A stretch of DNA of 63,811 nucleotides, counting the filler, from Chrysochromulina tobinii (Eukaryota): assembly GCA_001275005.1 (NCBI GenBank). It is 6 parts of 6 records of this genome, joined end to end, with 100 filler letters (N's around TTAATTAATTAA, not from the genome) between each part and the next. Parts side by side here need not be neighbours in the genome. Positions count along the whole stretch, not along the records: positions 1 to 7,400 come from JWZX01001291.1; 5 more parts are not named here. One strand, given 5' to 3'. Shown here piece by piece: positions 1 through 61,411 of this stretch. The first letter of the stretch is position 1, and each line of letters begins with the position of its first letter. The position numbers were made by a program, and so were the translations under genes. The notes below the pieces were generated by a model, which made no database searches, was not told the DNA's origin, and worked only from the letters and a program-made list of their open reading frames with translations.

Positions 1-543
1 AGCCAGCGGCGCCAAGCTGTAGAGACCGGCCTGGCCCCGCACGGGCGTGGCGAATGACCGGATCGTGGTAGAGCGAATCCACAAAGTAGCGGCGCCACCC
101 ACTGCGCCAGCAGTCACTTCTGTCGGGAACATATCGGCGGCGGACACCAGGTAGCCGCCGGCCAGGGCGGCATAGTCGAGACCAGCCAGGACCGAATCCC
201 GCTCGTATCGGAACCGCTTGCTTGTGAGGGAGGCAGCATCGTCCAGCCCATCGGCAAGAAGCTGAAGCCAGGCAACGCGCATCTTCAGAGGGCTGATGAC
301 GGCCAGGATTGTGGCGGTGTCGAGCACAGCAGGGTCGCTCGTGAACAGCGCGCCCACGAGTTCGCCCGCCACGTTCGAGTAAGCCGCCTCCATCTGCCCA
401 GCCGCCCCAGGTATCACGCAGAGCGTGGCACCCAACGTCGTGTTGAAGGAATCACCCGTCGCAAAGGAGAGTGATGGGTCCGCGCCGCGAAGAGCCAGCG
501 CGGCCACGGGAGCTGTGCCCGCAGGAACTGCGATGAAATCCAT
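1..543 (-). CDS. Unlisted ORF (MDFIAVPAGTAPVAAL...), >181 aa, runs off window; possible gag-like ORF1 of the retroelement
   Basis: My own translation from ATG at 543 has no stop to position 1. It is on the same strand as the polyprotein. No recognisable motif. Confidence 0.5.
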   Translation of the reverse strand, partial: MDFIAVPAGTAPVAALALRGADPSLSFATGDSFNTTLGATLCVIPGAAGQMEAAYSNVAGELVGALFTSDPAVLDTATILAVISPLKMRVAWLQLLADGLDDAASLTSKRFRYERDSVLAGLDYAALAGGYLVSAADMFPTEVTAGAVGGAATLWIRSTTIRSFATPVRGQAGLYSLAPLA

Positions 544-1484
544 AGGTAGGGACACCACAACAACAGCACGACAAAGCGCACGAGACGCGAGGGCGGATTC
601 TCGAAGCTTTCTCGAAGCACTCAGTGCGGAACGCACTCAGCGTTCATTACGCTGCCCGATATGGTAGTATGGGCGGTATATGCATGCATGCTCGGCCGGA
701 CCGGGAGGTCGGCTCGCCTGCGGGGAGCCCCTATTCACACCTACTGAACACAACCACACCTGCGGTGAGCTTGAGCTCAGCTTCACAGTTCGTTGGGCTC
801 GGTTGGGATGTATAGTGTTAACGAACACGACGTCCCCCCAATGCCTCAGAAACCCCATTGTAGTCAGCTTCCGCGCCACCGAGCGCGGCCATAGGTCATG
901 GAAGTCCCCCTGAGCTGTAGCGAGTCCTCTCAAGTGCGGTGAGCGGACGAGCGCGAGGGCATCGAAGATGGGCATATGGTATGGGGTGGCCAGTGGCCAG
1001 TGAGTTCACGTGGCGGCCGTGTGGCATCATGCATTTAGAATCCATTCCAATCGTATCAGAGTCAGTGGTTGCGGCGCCTCTCGCAAGAGGGTGTTAAGAA
1101 CACGAGCACCGCAACCGGTTGTTGTCGCCGCCGCGATGCGGCGCATCGGGGGTACATCTTGCCCTGAGGCAGTCCCTGAGTCACTGAAGAGTCTACACTC
1201 CGCAGTGCCTGTTATCTCAGACGGCGTCCGAGGCCCGGTTGCCCGGTTACAGGAGGGGCTAGACTGTGGTAGCTCGACCAGAAGAGGTCGGCCGCCGGAA
1301 TACACGCCTGGCACTCTGTGTGTCGAGTGATAAGCAGCGCGGGCTACTCACACGCGCAAGGGGCAGCCTTGTGAGACTGCTCGCATGCTGTACGTGGCCG
1401 TTGAGATTATCGCGCCTGGTACTCAGTAGGATCGAGTGATAGACAGCGCTGTCGGATCCGGCGAGGTGACGCCGGGTTGCCCGC

Positions 1485-4400
1485 TTAGGCGGACGCCGCG
1501 AGGGCGTCGACCAGTGAGAGACCGAGGAGCTGCCGAATGGCGAGCTCGCTCGATAGTGGCGGTAATGATGCCACTGAGACTGAATGCACGTCTGCGCTCG
1601 CAGCGCGAATGAGCAGCTTGTCGTAGCTGCTAGGGTTAAGGCGGGCATATACCCGGAGCGAGTCTTCCGTCTGCCAGCGGCACAGGGCCTGGATCTGGGC
1701 ATGGGAGGCGCCAGCCGCTAGGAGCGAGCACGCCAGATAGATTCGCGCTGAGTGCCAGCTGTACTTGCTGGCGTTCGCCTTGCCCACCACGCGGCCGAGG
1801 ACGAGCTGGAGCATACGGTCGAGCTGACCAGCGGCCAGCGGCCGCTTGTTGTCGGCTGAGATGAGCGGCACCATGTGTCGCTGCTGGCCGACTGCTGGCA
1901 CAGTGAGCTCGAGGGTGGCGAGGTGGTTGAAGGCGGCGTCCGGCTCGGATGGCGCGTAGTGCAGGTAGATGGGCAGCGCTCCCCAGACTTCGCCGTACGG
2001 GTCCGCTTTACTCGGAGGAGGTACTAGGATCGCATAGTCACCCACCTTAGGGTGGCGAAGGAGGTCAGGTGGCGGGTCGGCGTAGATGATCCCACGGAGG
2101 CACCACTGGAGGTTAGCGCGCGTGGCGAGCGCGCGCGTGAAGGTCACTCCGGCGCCGAGGGCGAGTTCGCTTTTCCGCATGCCCGTCTGACGCAGCGTTG
2201 CGACAAACGCACGAAAGGCCGCCGCGACGGCCGGCACCGTGAGGTCGAGCGCGCCCTTGTCCGTAGAGATCAAGAGCGCGTGGAGAATCTCCTTGGTGAA
2301 GGGCTGCTTGCGCTTCACTACGAGCGACAGGGCGCCGAAGTCCGCCGCGTGCCTTGCGTTGAGCCGCTTGCACATCTGCCAGACCAGCTTCGTGCCGGGC
2401 AGCTCGACAGTCCGCTTGCTGTGCGCCTTGCGCACGCCTAGGTAGGCCTTGTACGCGCTTGCCGGCTTCGCTTGCGCGCAGCCTCGTCGTCCGCGCATGA
2501 CCGTCAGGGCATACGGGAGGAAGTTGGCGGCGAGGATGGCCTCGCGCTCCCTCTCATGCGGCGTGAGGCCTGCCTCGCCCGGACGCCAGCAGGGCGTGTT
2601 GAGGCCGTCGCAGTACTTACGCCAGAGCTTCATGTTGCTGTCGAGCTTGGCCTTGGAGCCGGCGTTGTCCCACGTTGCGTCGTGCACTGCGCCGCACATG
2701 TGGGCGAGCCTCGAGGCGGAGGCCGGTTTGAGCGCATACTGCGAGCTGTCGTTGAGGAGCCGCTTGAGCGCGGTGCGCTCGGGCAGCAGAAGGTCGAGCG
2801 CGTTCGCCTCGCTTTCGACAGTGGCGCTGCGGTGCGTCACGGTGTACTCGAGGACCGTCTCGAGCTCCATGGTCGTCGCGCAGCGCTCCGGAAGGACGAC
2901 ACTGGTCACAGGGAGCCGATCGACGACTGTGCCAGGCGCCGAGGAGGGCACGTAGCGCTCAGTCTTGGGCCGCGTGTACGGCGTCAGGCGATCGTGCCGA
3001 ACAGGCCCAGGCGCTTGCTGCGCGTCGCGGCGCAGGGGCCCCGGCGCCGGTGTAGGGCCCGAGGCAGCGGGCGCCTCCACGAACGCGGGGACCCTAACAG
3101 TGAGAGCTGCGGCGCCGTCCTTGGCTGTATTGTCCCGACGGGTCCCTCCCAGGCCTTGCTCGGCGGCGGTGAGATAGGGCCTCGGGTTACCCATTGGGTC
3201 GGTGACGTGGTCGTCGTTTGAGCCACGGGCCGCCGCCGGCCGCCTGTCGAGCTCGAGCTGCACGAGCTCGTCGAGCAACGCGTCGAGCGCACTTGGGTGC
3301 GGCTCGACCGTCATGTGTGCACCTGCGTGTTCTGCAATCGAGATGAGCTCGGCGAGGCGGCCGCGGCTTGGCAGGTCGGCCGTCACGTTGACTTCGCTAC
3401 TTATGTGGCCGATGGTCATGTGTTCGCGCAGCCGGGGCATGAACTCGAGCGCGTTGACCGCGGCGAGCACGTGCTGCATTAGCGGAGACGCCGAGGCCTC
3501 ACGTGTCAGCACAAACGCCGGCACAAGCGCGTCAACCTCCGAGACGATGAGCTCGTCAACCGCCGCGTCAGCGCCCCACTTGCAGCAGTTCCCGTAGAAC
3601 CCCGCGAACTCTGTCACGGGCACAGGCAACAGGAGCTCGTCACCGATGAGGCGCCGCACCCATACGCGTGGGCTGTCGAGGCTCGTACAGACCCCGGCGA
3701 TCCCTGGGTGATCGGTTCCTTCCTTGCATGCGTCGCTGCGCCAGAAGCGGCGAGCCGAGACTGGACCCGTCTGCGCGACTCTTGCGAGCGACGTCACCGC
3801 GCTCGCAAAGGGTGCGCCCGCCGAGCGAGAGAGGCGCTCCGACCACTCGTTTGCCCTTGCCTTGATGACCGGCGTCAGGTGCCTGCCGGCAACGAGCGTG
3901 TCCGGCCCCTGCGCCAGCGCCCCTCCGTCCATCATGGGCGTGAAGAGCCCATGTGTCGCGGATGGACGCATGCCAGCCAAGAAGGAGAGGTGGAGCAGGA
4001 GGCCGACCAGAGAACGGTAGACGCTTACGGCGAGCTCGCCCAGAAGGAGGCAAAGAAGCTGATCGAGCGCTCGCTTCCGCTTCTCCTCACCGATGAACGC
4101 GATCCCGAGAGAGTAGTTGAAGCACGTGCCGAGCGATATGTCATGAACGCCGAGCATTCGTTTAGACGCGTCTGCCATGATGGTCCTGAATCCCTTGGTG
4201 ACAAAACACCAGGCCTTGGCCCCGCGGCGAGCGCGCTCAGGCCCAACGAACCGAAACTTGGTGTCGTCGGTGTAGCCGCCCCTGGAGTGGAGCCGGCTGA
4301 GTAGGCCCGCAGCCTCGCGTCTCGCGAACCAGCCGTCGAGCCCAGGCGAGTCGCGCCGCTGCGCGGCCGTGTGGGCTCCGTCGAGGACATTGAACACGAC

Positions 4401-7400
4401 GTCCCACATGTGCAGCACGAGCTCGCACAGGCGCTGACCCCAGTTGGAGCCCGGGACCGTGCCCTGTCCGAGTACCTTCTCGACGACGAAGCGCAGCTCG
4501 GGAGCCTGCTCCGCGAGCTTCTCGAGCTCGAGGAGGATGTATCCAACCATCCAGTAGCATCCCGCCATCAGCTTGAGCTGGTAGAACCAGTCGGCGAAGT
4601 CATCGGCCAGCGTCACCACGAATGTGTCGATGATGAGCGCGACGTGTTTGAGGATCGCGTCGTCGTTCATGTACTCGGAGATGTACCACTTGAGCTCCGG
4701 CGGCCGCTTGGGACCGTCGTCGCTGAGGCTGAGCACGCCCACGCACGGGTTGAGCGCCAGCCCCACGACCCACCTCGAGTTCCTCTGCGCGCGGTCGACC
4801 CAGTCTGCCGCCGTGGCCGCGATGAGCGCGGTGAGCCTGCTCGGGTACGACGTGAACTCGCGAGCGTGGGGGCTACGGCAGCCGCACCACAGGTCAGCCA
4901 GGGCGTCCAGTCGCGCGAGGCCGGCCGAGTACAGTATCTTCGTTGTCATCCGGCACCCACCGCCTAGGCGGCACATGTTGAAGCGAACCTCCCTCGACTC
5001 CGTCAACTTCTCGAGGTCGATCACCGCCCGCACGGACCAGCAGGGGGAAGCGTGGCGCGTCGCCGGCGCTGCGCCCTCAAAGCCGGCGTCACGCAGGCGA
5101 CGGCGCAGCAGCTGCGCGATGCCGTCTGCGTGGCAGCGCTTAGGGAAACACCAGCACATCAGGCGCAGCGACTCGCCAGCTCGTAGGCGCGCTTCGGCCT
5201 CGCCGAGCGCGTCAAGGAGTTGAGAACGCGCCGTCGGATCGCTGAAGCGTTCGTCGACGCACAGCTGGTACTTGGCGGCAATCGCGCCCAGATCGGCACC
5301 GATGGGGTCCTCGAGGAGCTCCTCGCACGCGTCGCATACAGCGTCACGTAGGCGCTCATCCGCACCCATCGGGAACGGGTTCCCAAAAGCCGTCATGCGG
5401 TCCACGCGCAGGTCGAGTGTGCCAGGCGGCGGCAGTGCCGCCCGCCCCTTCGTCTTCAGATTGCCCACAGATATGGCCAGCCGAGGCGTCGAGGCTGCCC
5501 CACTGAGTGGCAACTCCGCTGCGTCCAGCACCCTGCCCTCGAGGATGTACGCCGCTCCACGGCGGCACGCCGCCACGATGATCGCGACCGCTCGCCGCGT
5601 AACCTCGTCGCTGGCTTGGGAGAATGCATCTACGATTGAGCACGAGGTGGTCGCCACGACCACCGAGTACACCCCCGCGCTGGCCTCTGCCATGATGCGC
5701 TGGTACGTCACGTCGTCCCGGAGCTCATCGCCTCTGCGCACACCCGCGTTGGTGCAGCAGACGCCGAGGCGCCGGCATTCTTCCGCCAGAGCATCCGTGG
5801 CAGCGAAGAGATGCAGCACCTGCTTTGCGGCCGTGCCAACCGCCGCGAGCGACACGCGCTGCGCGCCGTGGAGCAGGCGCGCCCTCGCCTCGACTCGGCC
5901 CGCCACCGAGTCCAGGTGACTTCTGCCCGGCGGACCGCGCGCGGCGAGCTGCAGGCTGCGCCCGCGCGCAACGCCAGCGGCCAGCACCGACTCGAGGGAG
6001 GCACGAGCACGCGCCGAGACCTTTGCCTGCGACGCATTGCACTTGACCCCATACTCGGCCGCGATGGTGAACGCGGAGCGGTTCGGGTTAGCCTGGAGCA
6101 CGTCGTAGGCATCACAGGCCGCGCCCTGCTGATCTGGACCAGCGGCGTGGAAGGGCGTGCCGAGCAGCGACCCCGCCCCTCCATGCACGCTCCAGGGGTG
6201 CGTGGCCTCCGCGCGCTCGACGCGTATCTTGCCGAGCCGAGGCGCGAACGCAGCGGCCGCCGATGGCGACACAGCATCAGAGGCGTGCGGCGGCGGCGAG
6301 CGCGCGGTGACGCGTACCATGGCGAGCATACGGCACATGCGCTTGCCATCGGAGCCGCGCACGGCGTCGTAGCTGCGCTTAGAGAGCGAGTTGAGCGAGT
6401 GCGTTCTGACTCCATAGTCGTCCGCCAGCTCGCTGTGCGGGAATGAGGCGTTCACAATCACCCGGTACTTGCCGTTCGGCTTGGGCCTCGAGCCCATCTG
6501 CTGTGGCCTCCACGGGTTGAACGGCATGCGATCAAAAACCTCGTACCACCCCCGCCCTGCTCTCCCCGCAATGTCAGACTGCACCTTGGAGAGGCCGCCC
6601 GCCAGCGAGAGCAGGTGCGGCGGTAGCACCACCTGCATCTCCAGGTTGTCCGCGTCGAAGTCCACGCCAAACTCGAGCGTGCTGAAGAGCTCCCTGTCGG
6701 GGTAGTCGCCCGAGAACTGGGTCGCGAACGGCAGGTTGAGATGAGTGGTGGCAGGCGCCGACGTGTCGGTCAGGACGTACTCGTCGCGCGCGGTGCTGTA
6801 CTCGTACAGCCGCCCACGAAACTCGGGCAGCCTCTCGTGGTCGGAGAAGAGGAGCGCCTTCGGCGGCTTGACCGTGCACGCCTCGCCGTGCTCGAGCGCG
6901 TCGAGCAGGTACGCGTGCTGAGCGAGCAACCAGGGGTCAGCCTTCGACCTGAAATGGCCCGGCGGGTAAAAGCCCTCGTAGCTCCGCGGGCCAGGCGGCC
7001 CGGATCGCTGACCGGCAGGGGGCGGCCGCCCGGTAGTCACCGGCGGCCGGCACCTAGACGCAAACGGCGCCATCGCCAGCGCATCGTCCGTGAACGACGC
7101 AAGCGCACCCGCCTCGCGCAGCGCCAGCGGAATCTGGTCGGGATCAGCCTCGGCCACCCGAGCGTGCCACGCAGGGCAGTCAGCCGCCCAGATCGCGTCG
7201 AAGACTGCCGCGAGCTCGCGCGGCGCACAGGGCAGTTCCGATGCCCCCGAGGCATCGCCGAACCCCGTGGCGAGAGGCCCTGCAAGACGGTCAGCCTCGG
7301 TCGCGGTGAGGGTGGGCCCTGGCGTCGAGAACACCTCCCTCAGCTCAGCCACCTCTGACCGATGTACGGCCCACATCTCCTCGAAGCTGCGCGGCTCTCT
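1485..7400 (-). CDS. Polyprotein: RT (split by DUF4326-like and DNMT-like insert), RNase H, tyrosine recombinase; 5' truncated
   Basis: RT: GSRPKPNGKYRVIVNAS (~6445-6497), LADDFADWFYQL (~4572-4610), VLGQG, GGYTDD (~4263-4280). RNase H: WRSDACKEG (~3732), TEF, EVDA, HISSEVNVTADLPSRG (~3361-3410). YR: TGMRKSE (R 2175-2177), SKADPYG, HSARIY (~1740-1754), CRW, LRVYAR (Y 1647-1649). The frame stays open to the contig end at 7400. Confidence 0.88.
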   Translation of the reverse strand, partial: REPRSFEEMWAVHRSEVAELREVFSTPGPTLTATEADRLAGPLATGFGDASGASELPCAPRELAAVFDAIWAADCPAWHARVAEADPDQIPLALREAGALASFTDDALAMAPFASRCRPPVTTGRPPPAGQRSGPPGPRSYEGFYPPGHFRSKADPWLLAQHAYLLDALEHGEACTVKPPKALLFSDHERLPEFRGRLYEYSTARDEYVLTDTSAPATTHLNLPFATQFSGDYPDRELFSTLEFGVDFDADNLEMQVVLPPHLLSLAGGLSKVQSDIAGRAGRGWYEVFDRMPFNPWRPQQMGSRPKPNGKYRVIVNASFPHSELADDYGVRTHSLNSLSKRSYDAVRGSDGKRMCRMLAMVRVTARSPPPHASDAVSPSAAAAFAPRLGKIRVERAEATHPWSVHGGAGSLLGTPFHAAGPDQQGAACDAYDVLQANPNRSAFTIAAEYGVKCNASQAKVSARARASLESVLAAGVARGRSLQLAARGPPGRSHLDSVAGRVEARARLLHGAQRVSLAAVGTAAKQVLHLFAATDALAEECRRLGVCCTNAGVRRGDELRDDVTYQRIMAEASAGVYSVVVATTSCSIVDAFSQASDEVTRRAVAIIVAACRRGAAYILEGRVLDAAELPLSGAASTPRLAISVGNLKTKGRAALPPPGTLDLRVDRMTAFGNPFPMGADERLRDAVCDACEELLEDPIGADLGAIAAKYQLCVDERFSDPTARSQLLDALGEAEARLRAGESLRLMCWCFPKRCHADGIAQLLRRRLRDAGFEGAAPATRHASPCWSVRAVIDLEKLTESREVRFNMCRLGGGCRMTTKILYSAGLARLDALADLWCGCRSPHAREFTSYPSRLTALIAATAADWVDRAQRNSRWVVGLALNPCVGVLSLSDDGPKRPPELKWYISEYMNDDAILKHVALIIDTFVVTLADDFADWFYQLKLMAGCYWMVGYILLELEKLAEQAPELRFVVEKVLGQGTVPGSNWGQRLCELVLHMWDVVFNVLDGAHTAAQRRDSPGLDGWFARREAAGLLSRLHSRGGYTDDTKFRFVGPERARRGAKAWCFVTKGFRTIMADASKRMLGVHDISLGTCFNYSLGIAFIGEEKRKRALDQLLCLLLGELAVSVYRSLVGLLLHLSFLAGMRPSATHGLFTPMMDGGALAQGPDTLVAGRHLTPVIKARANEWSERLSRSAGAPFASAVTSLARVAQTGPVSARRFWRSDACKEGTDHPGIAGVCTSLDSPRVWVRRLIGDELLLPVPVTEFAGFYGNCCKWGADAAVDELIVSEVDALVPAFVLTREASASPLMQHVLAAVNALEFMPRLREHMTIGHISSEVNVTADLPSRGRLAELISIAEHAGAHMTVEPHPSALDALLDELVQLELDRRPAAARGSNDDHVTDPMGNPRPYLTAAEQGLGGTRRDNTAKDGAAALTVRVPAFVEAPAASGPTPAPGPLRRDAQQAPGPVRHDRLTPYTRPKTERYVPSSAPGTVVDRLPVTSVVLPERCATTMELETVLEYTVTHRSATVESEANALDLLLPERTALKRLLNDSSQYALKPASASRLAHMCGAVHDATWDNAGSKAKLDSNMKLWRKYCDGLNTPCWRPGEAGLTPHEREREAILAANFLPYALTVMRGRRGCAQAKPASAYKAYLGVRKAHSKRTVELPGTKLVWQMCKRLNARHAADFGALSLVVKRKQPFTKEILHALLISTDKGALDLTVPAVAAAFRAFVATLRQTGMRKSELALGAGVTFTRALATRANLQWCLRGIIYADPPPDLLRHPKVGDYAILVPPPSKADPYGEVWGALPIYLHYAPSEPDAAFNHLATLELTVPAVGQQRHMVPLISADNKRPLAAGQLDRMLQLVLGRVVGKANASKYSWHSARIYLACSLLAAGASHAQIQALCRWQTEDSLRVYARLNPSSYDKLLIRAASADVHSVSVASLPPLSSELAIRQLLGLSLVDALAASA

Positions 7401-7500
7401 NNNNNNNNNNNNNNNNNNNNNNNNNNNNNNNNNNNNNNNNNNNNTTAATTAATTAANNNNNNNNNNNNNNNNNNNNNNNNNNNNNNNNNNNNNNNNNNNN
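7401..7500. other. Artificial contig spacer
   Basis: N44-TTAATTAATTAA-N44, which places stops in all six frames. Confidence 0.97.
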
Positions 7501-16318: not shown

Positions 16319-16418
16319 NNNNNNNNNNNNNNNNNNNNNNNNNNNNNNNNNNNNNNNNNNNNTTAATTAATTAANNNNNNNNNNNNNNNNNNNNNNNNNN
16401 NNNNNNNNNNNNNNNNNN
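16319..16418. other. Artificial contig spacer
   Basis: N44-TTAATTAATTAA-N44. Confidence 0.97.
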
Positions 16419-29859: not shown

Positions 29860-29959
29860 NNNNNNNNNNNNNNNNNNNNNNNNNNNNNNNNNNNNNNNNN
29901 NNNTTAATTAATTAANNNNNNNNNNNNNNNNNNNNNNNNNNNNNNNNNNNNNNNNNNNN
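29860..29959. other. Artificial contig spacer
   Basis: N44-TTAATTAATTAA-N44. Confidence 0.97.
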
Positions 29960-45462: not shown

Positions 45463-45562
45463 NNNNNNNNNNNNNNNNNNNNNNNNNNNNNNNNNNNNNN
45501 NNNNNNTTAATTAATTAANNNNNNNNNNNNNNNNNNNNNNNNNNNNNNNNNNNNNNNNNNNN
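45463..45562. other. Artificial contig spacer
   Basis: N44-TTAATTAATTAA-N44. Confidence 0.97.
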
Positions 45563-46107: not shown

Positions 46108-48207
46108 CTAGCTCGGCCGCCGCACCTCAATATAGAAGCGGCGCTGCTTGGCACGGCTCGCCCAGAGCCGATCAAAGTATGAGGCGCCTCCGTCGCCAAA
46201 CCCGGCGGGCCACCCTTCGTTGACCAGCTGGCAGCCCGCCGGGCCGATCCTAGCCTTGATCGCCTGCGCGCCGCTCGCGGTGCCCGAGGCGGCACGGAAG
46301 GCGCTCGCGCCCGCGGCGCTGTGTTGGCGCATATCGAGGAGGGTGTGCGCGACACGGTCGAGCAACTCGAGGTTGTCCGAGATGATGAGCAGCCGCCCGT
46401 CGGCCACGAGCGCCAGCAGCGCGTCCCGCAAAAATGGCGCCCCGAGCAGATAGCCGGTGCCGTCGTCGTGGTCGGCCGGCGGCTCTGGAAAAGTGACCCA
46501 AATGCTTGAAAAGGAGCGAGGGCGTACATGGTGGCGTAACGCGAGTGCGGCATCACCCCCGAGCACGGCGAGATTGGGGAGAGACTCAGTTCGAAGCCTA
46601 TCGAAGATTTGGTGGATGCGGTCGCCCCGGAGCTCGCTGGCGACCCAATTGACATGTGGCGCCGTGCGCGCCTGCGCTGCCACCCATTCGCCGCTGCCCG
46701 AGCCGATTTCGAGATGGATGGGCCTTGCCGCGCCGCCTCCGCCTGCGCCGCCGCCAAAGATATCGGTCGCCCAGCGCACCTGGCATTTGGAATTGACTGC
46801 CCGCTTTGCCCGCTTGAGCACTCGCCGCTCGCTCTTGGCGACGGCGCCGTCGTCCGCGCGCGCACACAGCGCCTGCAGAGTGCCCAAGCCGAGCCGGTCG
46901 AGGCGTGTGGTGAGCAAGGCGGCGAGGCGCCACCGGCGCAGCGCCTTAGGTGTCTGGCCATAGGCGGGTGGCTGCTCGGCGAGCGGCGTGGCAGCTAGCT
47001 TCGCAGTACTTTGACTCACAAGTACGACGCGTGCGTACAGTGCCTCAGTCTGCCGCAGGTGGCGGCGCAGCTCAGCCGTGCTCGGCTTGTCGCCGTCGCC
47101 GCCGCTGCTGCTGACGGCGGCGGTCGAAGCCGCCTCACCGTCCGAAGCGGCGCCACGCTTGCGCCGCTTCGTCGGCCGCACCTCATCCTCATCGCCGTCC
47201 GCCACAGCACGCGCTGTCGCCGGCGCTGTCGCCGGCGCGTCGGCGGGCCCGCGGCCAGGCGGCGCGTCGAGCGAGTACCCGCCTGCCGCGAGCAGCTGTG
47301 TGAGGCGCTCGAGCTCACGTCTCGACTCCGCCTCCCGATGCTGCAGGAAGGCTTGCTGTTGCCACCCCTCGGTGGACTGCTCATCGCGGTCTTCATAGAG
47401 TGCCGTCTCGGCGCCCTCCTCGAGACGCGCCGACGCGCTGCGCAGCCGTGCGGCAGCGCGGGACCACTCGAGCCGTGCGGCATGTGCCGTGGCGAAGGCG
47501 AGGTGCAGCGCGACCGATGGCGTGAGCTGTGGCTGGCGCGCCAGCAGCGCCTCCGCCGCCTCGACGCGTAGGCCCATGCACAGGCACCGGCCCGCGTAGT
47601 CGGCGCTCGCCGCGTCGAGGGGCACGCTCCACTCGGATAGCATCCGATCGACGAACGGCTCCACCCGCTCAACGTCGCCCCACACCAGGCACGCGCGCAG
47701 ATACGCTTTGCAGCTGCGCAAGTCCGGCACTGTGTGCAGCTGCTCGACGGCGCTCACAAGCGTCGCCTCGGCGGCCTGCAGCTCTCCGGTGAGGCACAGC
47801 CCGTTGACCACTGCAGCGTACGTCGTGGCGGTGGGCATTAAGCTGCGGCTGCGCATGTCGGCAAGAAGCGTGGCAGCGCGGCCGTTGTCACCGCACTTGG
47901 CCGCGACACCAATCAGCACGTTGAATGTCACCGCGGTAGGCTTCAGCCCTTCGGCAAGCAGCTCCTCGAAGCACGTGAATGCTGCGCCAAGCTTGCGCTC
48001 ACGGCCGAGAGCGTGGATGCGCTTGTTGAATTCGACGACCCGGGAGTGCGCGGATGGTCCGCCACCTTTGCGATTGGCGCCGACGGCCTCGGCGGCTGCG
48101 GCCGGCGGCACAGAGCGCGCTGTGGCAAGCGGCGGCAGCGCGGAGCCCTCAGTGGCAGTGGCAGTGGCAGTGGCCCTCAGGGCCAGTCGACGCTCCTTCC
48201 TGTTCAT
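46108..48207 (-). CDS. PPR-repeat + TrmB-like tRNA (guanine-N7) methyltransferase (PPR-TGM type)
   Basis: PPR motifs: GLKPTAVTFNVLIGVAAKCGD, PTATTYAAVVNGLCLTGE. MTase: LEIGSGSGEW, NWVASELR, NLAVLGGDA, FPEPP, SDN. Confidence 0.88.
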   Translation of the reverse strand: MNRKERRLALRATATATATEGSALPPLATARSVPPAAAAEAVGANRKGGGPSAHSRVVEFNKRIHALGRERKLGAAFTCFEELLAEGLKPTAVTFNVLIGVAAKCGDNGRAATLLADMRSRSLMPTATTYAAVVNGLCLTGELQAAEATLVSAVEQLHTVPDLRSCKAYLRACLVWGDVERVEPFVDRMLSEWSVPLDAASADYAGRCLCMGLRVEAAEALLARQPQLTPSVALHLAFATAHAARLEWSRAAARLRSASARLEEGAETALYEDRDEQSTEGWQQQAFLQHREAESRRELERLTQLLAAGGYSLDAPPGRGPADAPATAPATARAVADGDEDEVRPTKRRKRGAASDGEAASTAAVSSSGGDGDKPSTAELRRHLRQTEALYARVVLVSQSTAKLAATPLAEQPPAYGQTPKALRRWRLAALLTTRLDRLGLGTLQALCARADDGAVAKSERRVLKRAKRAVNSKCQVRWATDIFGGGAGGGGAARPIHLEIGSGSGEWVAAQARTAPHVNWVASELRGDRIHQIFDRLRTESLPNLAVLGGDAALALRHHVRPRSFSSIWVTFPEPPADHDDGTGYLLGAPFLRDALLALVADGRLLIISDNLELLDRVAHTLLDMRQHSAAGASAFRAASGTASGAQAIKARIGPAGCQLVNEGWPAGFGDGGASYFDRLWASRAKQRRFYIEVRRPS

Positions 48208-48269
48208 CTGGCCTCTCGTGAACGATCTCGTGAACCCTTTTTTTTCTTACGAACAGCCGACGCACATCG

Positions 48270-53028: not shown

Positions 53029-55065
53029 CTAAGAGAGGATCTTTGGCGCTCTTCCTCTCCGCCGCCGGCGCGCGTCAGCCCCCTCCTCCATGCACTCGAG
53101 CAGCCGGCCCAGGCGGCGTCGGTACGGCCCCTCTATCCTGGGGTCATCGCAGAGCTCCCTCGCCGCCTGCGTGCGCAACCCCATGCTCAGCAGCATCGGG
53201 AGCAGCATCTGACGGAAGGGCCCCGCCTTCTTGGCCTCGGCGGGCAGCGTGCTGAGGAAGGTATTGAGCGCTGCCGCGAGCACAAAGGAGCGCGGCGAGA
53301 GGAGTGGAGTGTACTTGGAATTGAGGAGGATGCGGCACTGCCGCCCCTCCACCGCTGAGGCCACGTGATCGAGGAAGATCTCGAGCTCCCGTGCAAGCAC
53401 CGCCACATGCGACAACCTCGACGCCTCGTGCGACCAGCGCGGAGTCGGGTCCGAGGGGCCCGCTGTACTGAAGAGCTCGCTGATGGCAGTGACGTGTAGG
53501 AGAGGGCGCTCTCCCGCCGTCCAAAGGGAGTCAAACAGCGAGTCGCACTCGAGAGGTAGCATGGTACCTAGGGCAGGAAATTCCTGCTTCTCAGCCTGCT
53601 TGTCGGCGTCGGCCGCGCTGGCGGCGCTGCCGCTGCAGCCATCGACGGCGCCACCCGCGGTGGAGTCATACGAGACGGCCTCGTTACCACCTCGCGCGGT
53701 AGGGTCGGCAGTATTCCCTTCGTCGGACGAGGCCGCTCCAAGGGCACTACGCACCGTCTCGACGATCCGGCACCAGTTCTCGTCGCGCATCGAGAAGCCG
53801 ACGAAGAGGACGTGCTGCGTCATCAGCAGCGCCTGCAGCACGGCCTCGCTCGCCGCCTGTTCCTTCGAGAAGCGTGCGTAGTCGTGGCGCGTGAGCACGA
53901 TGGATTCGGGCCGCGAGCAGGTGCCGTGCAGCTTGAGGCACCATAGGTCGCGCACGGAGCCGGCGCCGGCGGGCAACATCGTCATATCGTGGCCGGCGAC
54001 CTTCACAGCCGTCTCGAAGAGCTCATCATAGTTGGTCGTGACGCAGCCGCGGAAGGGCAGCCCGGCGAGGAGCGCGTGCTGGAGCGAGTAGCGCTTGGCC
54101 GACGCGAGGATCCGGGCGCAGCGCGCCTTGAGCGGCCCGTCGCCTCCCGCACGCGACGAGCAGACCGAAGCAGCCTCGAGAGGATTGAGCTGCGACAACG
54201 CCTCGCGTTCCGTTGCGAGAAAGCCCAGCTCCGCACCGAGGCGGTCGAGCAGCTGCTTCCACGAGGGCAGGCCCGCGTTGATCGAGACGCCCGCGCCGAG
54301 GAAGAGCGACACCTGCCCGTCCAGGAAGCGATCGGCCAGCCGCTCCACCTCGCTGTGGAACCGGGCGGGGTCCGTAATGTCGGCCGGGGGTTTGAGGCGC
54401 CAAAGCATGCTGAACATGTTGAGATGGTTCTCGGAGAGCTTGTCTCCGAGAAGCTGCCGCCGCGCGAGGTGAGCCGCGCCGAAGGCCGCCTGGTCGACCG
54501 TGCACAGGGCTACGTCAATCGCATGCGTCTTCGTGAATGCATCCAGCTCACTCAACATCATCAGCATGATGGAGCCGGTGTTATCGTCGCCCGTGAGCGC
54601 GTCCTCCAGCTTCGGCACCATGAAGCCTGCGCCAAAGACGGGTAACGCCACAAGCGGAAGTGCCCTACCGAAGCGCGACGGAACAGCCTCCAGGTCTTGC
54701 GCGACCTGCGCGAGGAAGGATCGCAACGTTGTCGCCAGCTGATCCAACGGCAAGCCTCCAAGTGCGAGCGCCAGGTACGGCTGCGGATGCTCGTAGCCTC
54801 GCGAAGACTCGCGCACCTGCTCCATCTTGGGACGGCATCGAATGCAGCGATGCTCATCAAGGCCCCAGCCGGACGGCCGCGGCGGGATTTCACGACTCGA
54901 TATTTGCCAGAGGGGATTGACCACCATGGACTCGTCCACAGGGCAGAGCCACGCATCGCATGCGATGTAGCGCACGTCGCTGTTGAGCACGAAGATGTGC
55001 CCACGCTTCGGAGCAGCAGAGGAAAGAGCTGCCACCACCACCGCGATAACTGGGACAAGCAGCAT
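53029..55065 (-). CDS. Macro-like domain + SIR2-like (SIR2_2) NAD-binding domain protein
   Basis: Macro-like: GHIFVLNSDVRYIACDAWLCPVD and LPLVALPVFGAG. SIR2_2: LFLGAGVSINAGLPSW, TTNYD, KLHG, IVLTRHDY, LFVGFSMRDEN. Hydrophobic N-terminus; intronless. Confidence 0.87.
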   Translation of the reverse strand: MLLVPVIAVVVAALSSAAPKRGHIFVLNSDVRYIACDAWLCPVDESMVVNPLWQISSREIPPRPSGWGLDEHRCIRCRPKMEQVRESSRGYEHPQPYLALALGGLPLDQLATTLRSFLAQVAQDLEAVPSRFGRALPLVALPVFGAGFMVPKLEDALTGDDNTGSIMLMMLSELDAFTKTHAIDVALCTVDQAAFGAAHLARRQLLGDKLSENHLNMFSMLWRLKPPADITDPARFHSEVERLADRFLDGQVSLFLGAGVSINAGLPSWKQLLDRLGAELGFLATEREALSQLNPLEAASVCSSRAGGDGPLKARCARILASAKRYSLQHALLAGLPFRGCVTTNYDELFETAVKVAGHDMTMLPAGAGSVRDLWCLKLHGTCSRPESIVLTRHDYARFSKEQAASEAVLQALLMTQHVLFVGFSMRDENWCRIVETVRSALGAASSDEGNTADPTARGGNEAVSYDSTAGGAVDGCSGSAASAADADKQAEKQEFPALGTMLPLECDSLFDSLWTAGERPLLHVTAISELFSTAGPSDPTPRWSHEASRLSHVAVLARELEIFLDHVASAVEGRQCRILLNSKYTPLLSPRSFVLAAALNTFLSTLPAEAKKAGPFRQMLLPMLLSMGLRTQAARELCDDPRIEGPYRRRLGRLLECMEEGADARRRRRGRAPKILS

Positions 55066-55422
55066 AACCCACTCAGTGCCCGCACAGAGGTGAGGAGCCG
55101 AAACCGAGCGCATGTTCTTGAAATCTCGCCGCGAAATCTCGCACCACGTCCTTACGATCGCCGCTTCAAGCGGCGCCGCGTCAACGCTGCACTGGAGCAA
55201 ACTCCGACTAAACTCCGACCGCGACCGAGGCTTTCAAAGGGCCGTGGAGCACTCATGTATACTCACCACGCGCCCTACACCCGGCTGTTCTTTATCTCTC
55301 TCTCCCGTCTGCTCGATCGAGTCGTCGAGTCCGTATCGATTCTGTCTGTCTGCGCTCGCTGCCCCAAGGCCCACAAGGCCAAGGGCACGTCGCCAGCTCA
55401 GTGTGACGCTCAGCTCTCATCC

Positions 55423-61311: not shown

Positions 61312-61411
61312 NNNNNNNNNNNNNNNNNNNNNNNNNNNNNNNNNNNNNNNNNNNNTTAATTAATTAANNNNNNNNNNNNNNNNNNNNNNNNNNNNNNNNN
61401 NNNNNNNNNNN
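61312..61411. other. Artificial contig spacer
   Basis: N44-TTAATTAATTAA-N44. Confidence 0.97.

What the first reader, a model, noticed from the sequence alone, without database searches (positions are those of the whole stretch)
4720..6370. Reverse transcriptase split by a ~550-aa in-frame nested cargo (DUF4326-like + DNMT-like + DUF4326-like)
Seen: the RT N-terminal motifs (GSRPKPNGKYRVIVNASFP, ~6445-6497) are separated from LADDFADWFYQL and GGYTDD (~4610-4263) by about 1.65 kb with no stop. Inside are a degenerate DUF4326-like unit (GSLLGTPF...RSHLD, ~5890-6230) and a methyltransferase-like fold, which is itself interrupted by an intact DUF4326-like unit. Known: these RT motifs are normally close together, and DIRS cargo domains usually lie outside the RT. 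Inference: this is a retroelement family that carries accessory enzymes Russian-doll style inside a surface loop of the RT. The intact frame and the intact YxDD, RNase H and YR catalytic residues suggest it is recent or under selection. I do not know of a described element with this architecture.
Basis: partly seen in the sequence, partly recalled or inferred. Interest (0 to 1): 0.85.

Follow-up and report, generated by a model that had tools for sequence, protein, structure and literature searches.

The report
Enzymes nested inside a reverse transcriptase
A retrotransposon of a haptophyte alga has about 550 extra amino acids inside its reverse transcriptase, whose halves are predicted to refold around them, and its relatives use the same loop to carry different captured domains, such as likely DNA methyltransferases.

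Summary
Window 1485-7400 (-) is one open frame of a tyrosine-recombinase (YR) retrotransposon of Chrysochromulina tobinii. RT motif 2 and motif A lie 620 aa apart, against an estimated 66-159 aa in 85 of 103 relatives. An AlphaFold model rejoins the halves onto MMLV RT fingers/palm (Z 16.7, rmsd 3.1, 237 residues). Independent DNA contigs tile the insert, and no contig skips it.

The loop holds a decayed DUF4326 and a catalytically dead C5-methyltransferase fold, split by an intact DUF4326 that is 70% identical to stand-alone, non-element proteins. Relatives carry other cargo in the same loop: DUF4326 alone, methyltransferase alone, both in either order, a second methyltransferase type, or a RapZ-C-like domain. 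The RT tree gives at least two separate occupations.

An intact methyltransferase in relatives is under purifying selection (dN/dS 0.12). The dead one here is relaxed (0.29-0.78) and is likely held in frame because the rest of the RT and the recombinase lie downstream.

Methyltransferase-bearing DIRS elements and small insertions at this RT site are published. I found no report of exchangeable enzyme-sized cargo there. No activity was tested.

The parts
1485..7400 (-). Single long ORF of the YR retrotransposon (1971 aa visible; 5' part lost in an assembly gap; the sibling in L002 has one 3043-aa ORF)
   Evidence: P0002 (Ctob_015819) matches at 99-100% but its gene model omits aa 1104-1257
6378..6953 (-). 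RT N-terminal half (fingers, through motif 2), aa 150-341
   Evidence: profile alignment to insert-free relatives; structural match to MMLV RT begins at model residue 69 = chain residue 40; dN/dS 0.15 vs L001
4720..6377 (-). The insert: about 550 aa in the loop between RT motif 2 and motif 3(A)
6237..6377 (-). Linker whose pattern is visible in other members of the cargo-bearing clade; low confidence in the model
   Evidence: read by eye; pLDDT under 50 at model residues 193-235
5871..6236 (-). DUF4326 no. 1, conserved cysteines lost; intact in P0009, P0010, P0015, L006
5529..5825 (-). C5-methyltransferase fold, N-terminal part (motifs I-VI); catalytic PC motif lost and about 40 aa after it deleted
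   Evidence: alignment to intact relatives; fold; dN/dS 0.29-0.52
5091..5480 (-). DUF4326 no. 2, intact, inserted just after methyltransferase motif VI; absent from siblings L001, L002, P0004-P0007
   Evidence: Pfam E 1e-10; 70% identical over 149 aa to stand-alone P0201; tree; dN/dS 0.20-0.26
4794..5048 (-). C5-methyltransferase fold, C-terminal part (motifs VIII-X), degenerate
   Evidence: dN/dS 0.48-0.78
4080..4709 (-). RT C-terminal half: motifs A, B and C (YxDD), palm
   Evidence: dN/dS 0.08-0.14 in five of six close loci, 0.32 in the partly covered L010
3354..3752 (-). RNase H-like region (assigned from a recalled pattern of acidic residues and from position; not folded, no Pfam hit)
   Evidence: sequence; dN/dS 0.07-0.12
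1632..2735 (-). Tyrosine recombinase
   Evidence: Pfam Phage_integrase E 0.0009, below cut-off; relatives P0021 and P0084 pass the cut-off; dN/dS 0.07-0.09
775..856 (-). Terminal repeat B1
   Evidence: matches the B repeats of L002 and L011
549..774 (-). Terminal repeat A (approximate ends)
   Evidence: matches the 220-bp A repeat of L002
1..546 (-). Start of the same element's ORF (tandem copy, or assembly collapsed through repeat A)
   Evidence: 77% identical to aa 1-185 of the L002 ORF; L011 has B2 here instead

Best explanation
This is a tyrosine-recombinase retrotransposon whose reverse transcriptase carries a 550-aa in-frame insert between motifs 2 and 3(A); the halves are predicted to fold together around it, so the loop likely works as a tolerant cargo site. 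Shown: the open frame, the insertion point, the different cargo in relatives, the loss of catalytic residues here and the selection pattern. Inferred history: an ancestor of a clade (13 sampled members) gained cargo in this loop. The branch leading here carried DUF4326 plus an intact C5 methyltransferase. Both lost their catalytic residues, and the methyltransferase shrank by in-frame deletions, because stops or frameshifts would destroy the downstream RT half and recombinase. A fresh DUF4326 from a stand-alone gene family then entered the dead methyltransferase, probably by template switching during reverse transcription, and is kept by selection. Inferred and untested function: cargo tethered to the RT would act on the element's own cDNA or on ADP-ribose-linked host defences.
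For: Spacing 66-159 aa in 85 of 103 relatives vs 620 here. One clean gap against the insert-free profile. Model residues 69-952 superpose on MMLV RT 40-278: 237 aligned, rmsd 3.1, Z 16.7. Residues 374-720 superpose on C5 methyltransferases at Z 8.1-9.4 across the second DUF4326. For intact relative P0015 the ten best rows are all C5 methyltransferases, Z 9.9-10.9. Cargo varies at the same site. The 13 main cargo rows form one branch (87/94), while P0067 sits in a starred group with five insert-free rows (99/98). dN/dS: RT, RNase H and YR mostly 0.07-0.15, dead methyltransferase 0.29-0.78, second DUF4326 0.20-0.26; intact methyltransferase in L005 vs L006 0.12, CI 0.06-0.22. DUF4326 no. 2 groups with stand-alone proteins, bootstrap 100 from no. 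1. Contigs of run X1 tile 4401-6443 with 0-2 differences each.
Against: No enzymatic or transposition activity was measured. The model was built with insert-free relatives in its alignment, which favours rejoining; pTM is 0.53. Short-chain dehydrogenases score as high as the methyltransferases on the window's own model (Z 8.9), and Pfam finds neither RT nor methyltransferase in it. Support for the cargo clade is below the starred level (87/94) and was 0.67 on the C-half alone. The dead DUF4326 no. 1 has dN/dS 0.16 against L001 but 0.43-0.68 against closer loci, which pure decay does not explain. The element shows no CpG depletion (o/e 1.10-1.26). L007-L010 are probably one lineage and carry inversions, so they are not independent. 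The genomic context of the stand-alone DUF4326 proteins was not seen.
Confidence: 0.8

Rival explanations
1. The insert is removed before the RT works, as an intron or by protein splicing or cleavage, so the working RT is ordinary.
For: GT and AG dinucleotides exist near both ends. Only assembled contigs, no raw RNA reads, were available, and these drop rare forms. Processing of the single polyprotein is unknown.
Against: The insert is stop-free and under coding constraint. RNA-run contigs cross the 5' junction unspliced (X17, X18, X19) and the 3' junction unspliced (X16, X17), and no listed joint links about 6377 to about 4720 in 7 runs laid; these may be DNA carry-over from related copies. 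The NCBI gene model keeps the insert. The ends show no intein-type terminus by eye (pattern recalled).
Confidence: 0.08
2. The insert crippled the RT; the element is moved in trans by insert-free relatives, or has been domesticated by the host.
For: No activity was tested, and 550 aa next to the fingers could hinder template binding.
Against: Both RT halves are under purifying selection across lineages. Terminal repeats are 100% identical within L002 (A1=A2, B1=B2) and L011 (B1=B2). The cargo clade is old and diverse.
Confidence: 0.07
3. The loop is only a permissive landing site and the cargo never served the element: all of it is trapped, neutral sequence.
For: Two of three units are dead here. 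Cargo differs between lineages, and 85 of 103 relatives lack it. Any insert must stay in frame and fold tolerably, which alone lowers dN/dS.
Against: Intact methyltransferases keep their catalytic motifs across members whose RTs are far apart on the tree, with dN/dS 0.12, against 0.29-0.78 once dead. DUF4326 recurs in the loop in at least two, probably three, distinct forms.
Confidence: 0.2
4. The architecture is an assembly chimera or a recent nested insertion of another mobile element.
For: The contig is short (7400 bp) and its 3' end may be collapsed through repeat A. No listed contig spans the whole stretch.
Against: Overlapping near-identical contigs of a lake-water run tile the insert. 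The same layout is in P0003 (89% identical over 1156 aa) and, without DUF4326 no. 2, in L001, L002 and L006. No terminal repeats flank the insert or DUF4326 no. 2 beyond 7-8-bp chance matches.
Confidence: 0.02

Closest known systems
SymbioDIRS-Dnmt3 of Symbiodinium (de Mendoza et al. 2018, PMC5890265)
   Same: YR retrotransposon with A-coding-B-A-B repeats and a C5 methyltransferase in the same ORF as the RT; methyltransferase under purifying selection.
   Different: The text read describes different domain orders within Pol and a separate recombinase ORF, not a methyltransferase inside the RT (Fig. 1e not held). Here everything is one ORF, the methyltransferase type escapes PF00145, it sits inside the RT, and this copy is dead.
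Chlamys Penelope-like elements with PHD fingers between RT2a and RT3(A) (bioRxiv 10.1101/2021.04.23.441226)
   Same: A folded accessory domain inserted in frame at the same RT site.
   Different: A different retroelement class, and one small chromatin-reader domain in some of five Chlamydomonas families. Here the cargo is 150-550 aa of enzyme-like domains, nested and exchanged between lineages.
RVT genes with the 2a loop between RT motifs 2 and 3 (PMC5718144)
   Same: A large insertion tolerated at the same position.
   Different: RVT genes are non-mobile, and the passage names no captured enzyme in the loop.
[quoted passage not shown]
   Same: Split direct repeats A1...B1-A2-B2, RT and YR.
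   Different: Usually three ORFs; here one ORF, as in two Bodo TATE copies. Which subgroup this belongs to was not tested.
DUF4326 (PF14216), proposed rhodanese-phosphatase clade acting on ADP-ribose products (PMC9503650)
   Same: Unit no. 2 passes the Pfam cut-off; its stand-alone kin are fused to NADAR, PARG and Tpt1/KptA domains, which fits that proposal.
   Different: The function is a published proposal, not a test. None of the 9 papers listed for DUF4326 has a retrotransposon in its title or abstract start. NADAR cargo is known from Gypsy and Tx1 elements, outside the RT.

Membership tests
YR retrotransposon with split direct repeats (order DIRS) | Reverse transcriptase domain | tested here: met
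   model superposes on MMLV, Ty3 and HIV RT at Z 14-16.7; no Pfam RVT hit
YR retrotransposon with split direct repeats (order DIRS) | Tyrosine recombinase | tested here: met
   Pfam E 0.0009, below cut-off; 2 of 24 relatives scanned pass the cut-off
YR retrotransposon with split direct repeats (order DIRS) | RNase H after the RT | tested here: inconclusive
   conserved region with acidic residues in the expected order (pattern recalled); no Pfam hit; not folded
YR retrotransposon with split direct repeats (order DIRS) | Repeats A1 ... B1-A2-B2 | tested here: met
   complete in sibling L002 (220 and 86 bp, each 100%); B1-A-B2 in L011 (99% identical to the window); the window shows B1-A only
YR retrotransposon with split direct repeats (order DIRS) | Three separate ORFs (usual, not universal) | tested here: not met
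   one 3043-aa ORF in L002; single-ORF TATE copies are described
Ngaro-like versus PAT-like versus VIPER-like | Position in an RT/RNase H tree with reference elements | not tested
   no named reference elements were among the sequences fetched
SymbioDIRS-Dnmt3 | Methyltransferase belongs to the DNMT3 clade | tested here: inconclusive
   DNMT3A/B tie with prophage, DNMT2, MET1 and DIM2 structures within 1 Z; no phylogeny with reference DNMTs
SymbioDIRS-Dnmt3 | Recombinase in a separate ORF | tested here: not met
C5 cytosine methyltransferase | Fold | tested here: met
   window model 374-720; intact relative P0015
C5 cytosine methyltransferase | Catalytic PC motif IV and intact motifs I, VI, VIII | tested here: not met
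   lost in the window copy and in P0003, P0004, P0007; present in P0009, P0010, P0012, P0015, P0016, P0020, P0023, L006 (motif numbering recalled)
DUF4326 (PF14216) | Pfam gathering score, unit no. 2 | tested here: met
   42.4 bits vs 25
DUF4326 (PF14216) | Pfam gathering score and conserved cysteines, unit no. 1 | tested here: not met
   no hit; homologous to Pfam-positive units in P0009, P0010, P0015

The most novel reading that the evidence does not exclude
A clade of algal YR retrotransposons that Pfam largely misses uses the RT 2-3(A) loop as a swappable cargo bay. Enzymes tethered there act during reverse transcription: a methyltransferase marks the new cDNA, and a DUF4326 or RapZ-C-like phosphatase counters an ADP-ribose-based host defence against retroelements. 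The re-capture of a working DUF4326 after the first one died would mark that function as essential.
Probability: 0.3. Interest if true: 0.85.

Novelty: new variant of a known kind. Interest (0 to 1): 0.63.

Why it matters
It shows a natural RT that is predicted to tolerate up to about 550 aa of folded domains in its fingers region, which points to an internal fusion site worth testing in RT tools. It adds haptophytes, and a methyltransferase type that PF00145 misses, to the retrotransposons that carry C5 methyltransferases; Pfam found an RT in only 1 of 24 relatives scanned, so Pfam-based surveys would likely overlook these elements. One family shows capture, selection, in-frame decay and re-capture side by side. 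Repeated DUF4326 capture makes a role for ADP-ribose chemistry in host-transposon conflict testable.

Tried and rejected
No genome is held for the window, so copy number and insert-free copies in the host were not examined.

Sequence profiles of alignments A2 and A5 found nothing meaningful in the PDB. Pfam gave no RT, RNase H or methyltransferase hit on the window protein.

No fold match for either DUF4326 unit appeared. The units were not folded alone, so this is inconclusive and the rhodanese-phosphatase assignment rests on a paper.

Spacing is estimated by offset from profile ends. P0146 (224) was rejected as a loop insert because its extra sequence lies before motif 2. Exact column-based spacing was not obtained.

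Duplication of unit no. 1 as the source of unit no. 2 was rejected. Flanking repeats or target duplications at the insert or unit no. 2 were not found. CpG depletion was not found.

RNA runs hold only 6-16% of sampled words and exist only as contigs, so they say nothing about expression. An atlas search of the RT N-half did not complete. Three look-ups of earlier findings returned nothing. No AU test of the cargo clade was run.
Full report
What is in the sequence. The minus strand carries one open frame from the assembly gap at 7400 to the stop at 1485, 1971 aa. A database protein named Ctob_015819 of Chrysochromulina tobinii, on a 7400-bp contig, matches it at 99-100% apart from a segment its gene model omits downstream of the RT. 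The window is a series of contigs joined by N spacers, so genes beyond 7400 need not be neighbours. The motif-2 arginine is aa 313 and the motif-A aspartate aa 933. The insert has no stop in this frame and 4-17 in each of the other five.

The element. Locus L002 holds a complete sibling, 75-80% identical at DNA level: repeat A (220 bp), one 3043-aa ORF, then B (86 bp), A, B, each pair 100% identical. This is the split-direct-repeat layout of PAT-, Ngaro- and VIPER-like YR retrotransposons (PMC6681497, passages). The window shows B (775-856) and A (about 549-774), followed by the start of the same ORF. L011, 99% identical to the window, has the second B there instead. The window's 3' end is therefore a tandem copy or a collapse, which does not touch the insert. 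The recombinase scores E 0.0009 against Pfam Phage_integrase. The RNase H assignment rests on a recalled residue pattern.

Is the RT really split? A search of 1.84 billion representatives with aa 151-1350 gave 924 hits, of which the best 150 were returned. Of the 161 proteins then held, 103 matched profiles of both RT halves. The estimated spacing was 66-159 aa in 85 and 224-620 in 18. Those 18 include the window protein, its database copy and one artefact (P0146). The sample is biased towards the query. A profile of 29 insert-free relatives aligns to the window protein at 100% probability, with a single gap from about 6377 to about 4720. An AlphaFold2 model of 3951-6950 (51 sequences, pLDDT 79.5, pTM 0.53) superposes residues 69-952 on MMLV RT 40-278 (237 aligned, rmsd 3.1, Z 16.7). 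Ty3, HIV and caulimovirus RTs follow in the wide search. In the model of relative P0015 the C-half starts at MMLV residue 121, which places the loop just after motif 2. These are predictions, helped by insert-free rows in the alignment.

Is it real DNA, and is it spliced? Contigs of lake-water run X1 overlap from 4401 to 6443 with 0-2 differences each. Contigs from RNA runs cross the 5' junction (X17, X18, X19) and the 3' junction (X16, X17) without a skip. No listed joint removes the insert in the 7 of 21 runs laid. These are contigs of related copies and may be DNA carry-over, so splicing is made unlikely but not excluded.

The cargo. Unit 1 (5871-6236) is a DUF4326 that has lost its conserved cysteines; it is intact in P0009, P0010, P0015 and L006. 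The next unit (5529-5825 plus 4794-5048) is modelled as one domain across the intervening unit and matches C5 methyltransferases at Z 8.1-9.4, with short-chain dehydrogenases equally high. In P0015, where it is intact, the ten best structural rows are all C5 methyltransferases. The window copy lacks the catalytic PC motif, about 40 aa after it and part of the segment before motif X. Unit 3 (5091-5480) is an intact DUF4326 that is absent from L001, L002 and P0004-P0007. It is 70% identical over 149 aa to stand-alone P0201, whose cluster holds a Chrysochromulina parva gene model, but only 31-36% identical to intact unit-1 homologues. In a tree of 47 domains it lies among stand-alone proteins, separated from all unit-1 copies at bootstrap 100. 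It is therefore a separate, later capture. Some stand-alone kin are fused to NADAR, PARG or Tpt1/KptA.

The loop across the family. The same site holds DUF4326-like domains alone (P0052, P0025), the methyltransferase alone (P0016), methyltransferase then DUF4326 (P0020, P0023), DUF4326 then methyltransferase (P0009, P0010, P0015, L006), a RapZ-C-like domain (P0110, E 1e-5) and a second methyltransferase type (P0067) that many insert-free relatives carry upstream of the RT. In a tree built on RT columns only (44 rows: 15 cargo rows after six near-duplicates were dropped, plus 29 of the short-loop rows), 13 cargo rows form one branch at 87/94. P0067 sits with five insert-free rows at 99/98, P0110 is unresolved, and the cargo label needs 3 changes. 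FastTree on 103 rows gave 0.93 for the same group. The loop was occupied at least twice.

Selection. Nei-Gojobori estimates against six close loci gave RT, RNase H and YR 0.00-0.15 (one partial outlier at 0.32), unit 3 0.20-0.26, the dead methyltransferase 0.29-0.78 and unit 1 0.16-0.68. The distant L006 is near saturation. Between L005 and L006, where the methyltransferase is intact, it has 0.12 (CI 0.06-0.22, 166 codons) against 0.04 for the RT. L007-L010 are not independent, and high GC3 (0.75-0.88) can bias dS.

How it most likely works. Shown: the architecture, the turnover of cargo and the contrast in constraint. Inferred: the loop between fingers and palm is on the surface and tolerates folded inserts. 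Because the rest of the RT and the recombinase lie downstream in one frame, cargo cannot be lost by a stop, only eroded in frame, and a dead domain becomes a landing site for the next capture. The capture route (template switching onto a cellular RNA) is inference. The benefit of intact cargo is untested. Self-methylation of cDNA has been proposed for Symbiodinium elements (PMC5890265), and DUF4326 has been proposed to remove phosphates from ADP-ribose products (PMC9503650, one passage).

What is known. C5 methyltransferases in DIRS Pol proteins are published (PMC5890265: parts 1-2 of 7 and passages; figure and supplements not seen). So are elements with both adenine and cytosine methyltransferases (bioRxiv 10.64898/2026.05.21.726589: parts 1-2 of 5 and passages; supplements closed). 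The site has precedent in the RVT 2a loop (PMC5718144, passages) and in PHD fingers between RT2a and RT3(A) of Chlamys elements (bioRxiv 10.1101/2021.04.23.441226, passages and section 9). I also read passages of PMC12344493, PMC3266345, PMC12477816, PMC9998398 and PMC4738411, and part 1 of 4 of PMC6338049. Eight searches showed no report of a methyltransferase or DUF4326 inside an RT, or of this haptophyte family. The library lacks most subscription journals and Repbase.

Verdict. The feature is real and family-wide. It is a new variant of a known kind: a known class of element, a known kind of cargo and a known tolerant site, combined into enzyme-sized, nested, exchangeable cargo that I did not find described.

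Noticed in passing
P0021, P0043, P0044, P0045, P0057, P0068 and others: Many insert-free relatives carry a PF00145-type C5 methyltransferase upstream of the RT. P0068 and P0108 also carry NADAR, and P0108 a methyl-CpG-binding domain, so the wider family is rich in epigenetic and ADP-ribose cargo.
   Followed up: partly
P0221, P0222; atlas rows: The loop-type methyltransferase also occurs in proteins with no RT, and predicted structures like it occur in clusters with RVT_2 or integrase domains, suggesting Copia-type elements carry it too.
   Followed up: no
window 1-856: After repeats B and A the sequence restarts the element's own ORF: a tandem copy or a collapsed assembly. Near-identical L011 has repeat B2 there.
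   Followed up: partly
window about 3627-4091 (aa 1104-1257 of the ORF): The NCBI gene model P0002 omits this in-frame segment, which relatives retain and which includes the start of the RNase H-like region; probably a wrongly called intron.
   Followed up: partly
window 7445-7456, 16363-16374, 29904-29915, 45507-45518, 61356-61367: Five pairs of 44-N runs around 12-base spacers: the window is a concatenation of contigs, not one locus.
   Followed up: yes
window 53032-55233 (-): ORF with a SIR2-like domain (Pfam E 2e-22), a type often linked to NAD-based defence (recalled); on another contig.
   Followed up: no
window 46111-48246 (-): PPR repeats fused to a Methyltransf_4 domain.
   Followed up: no
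L002:13189-18726 (+): An 1846-codon open frame begins at the element's 3' end, with no Pfam hit and no match to the proteins held.
   Followed up: partly
L003, L004, L007-L010: Copies with internal inversions and rearrangements relative to the window; they may be library or assembly artefacts.
   Followed up: no
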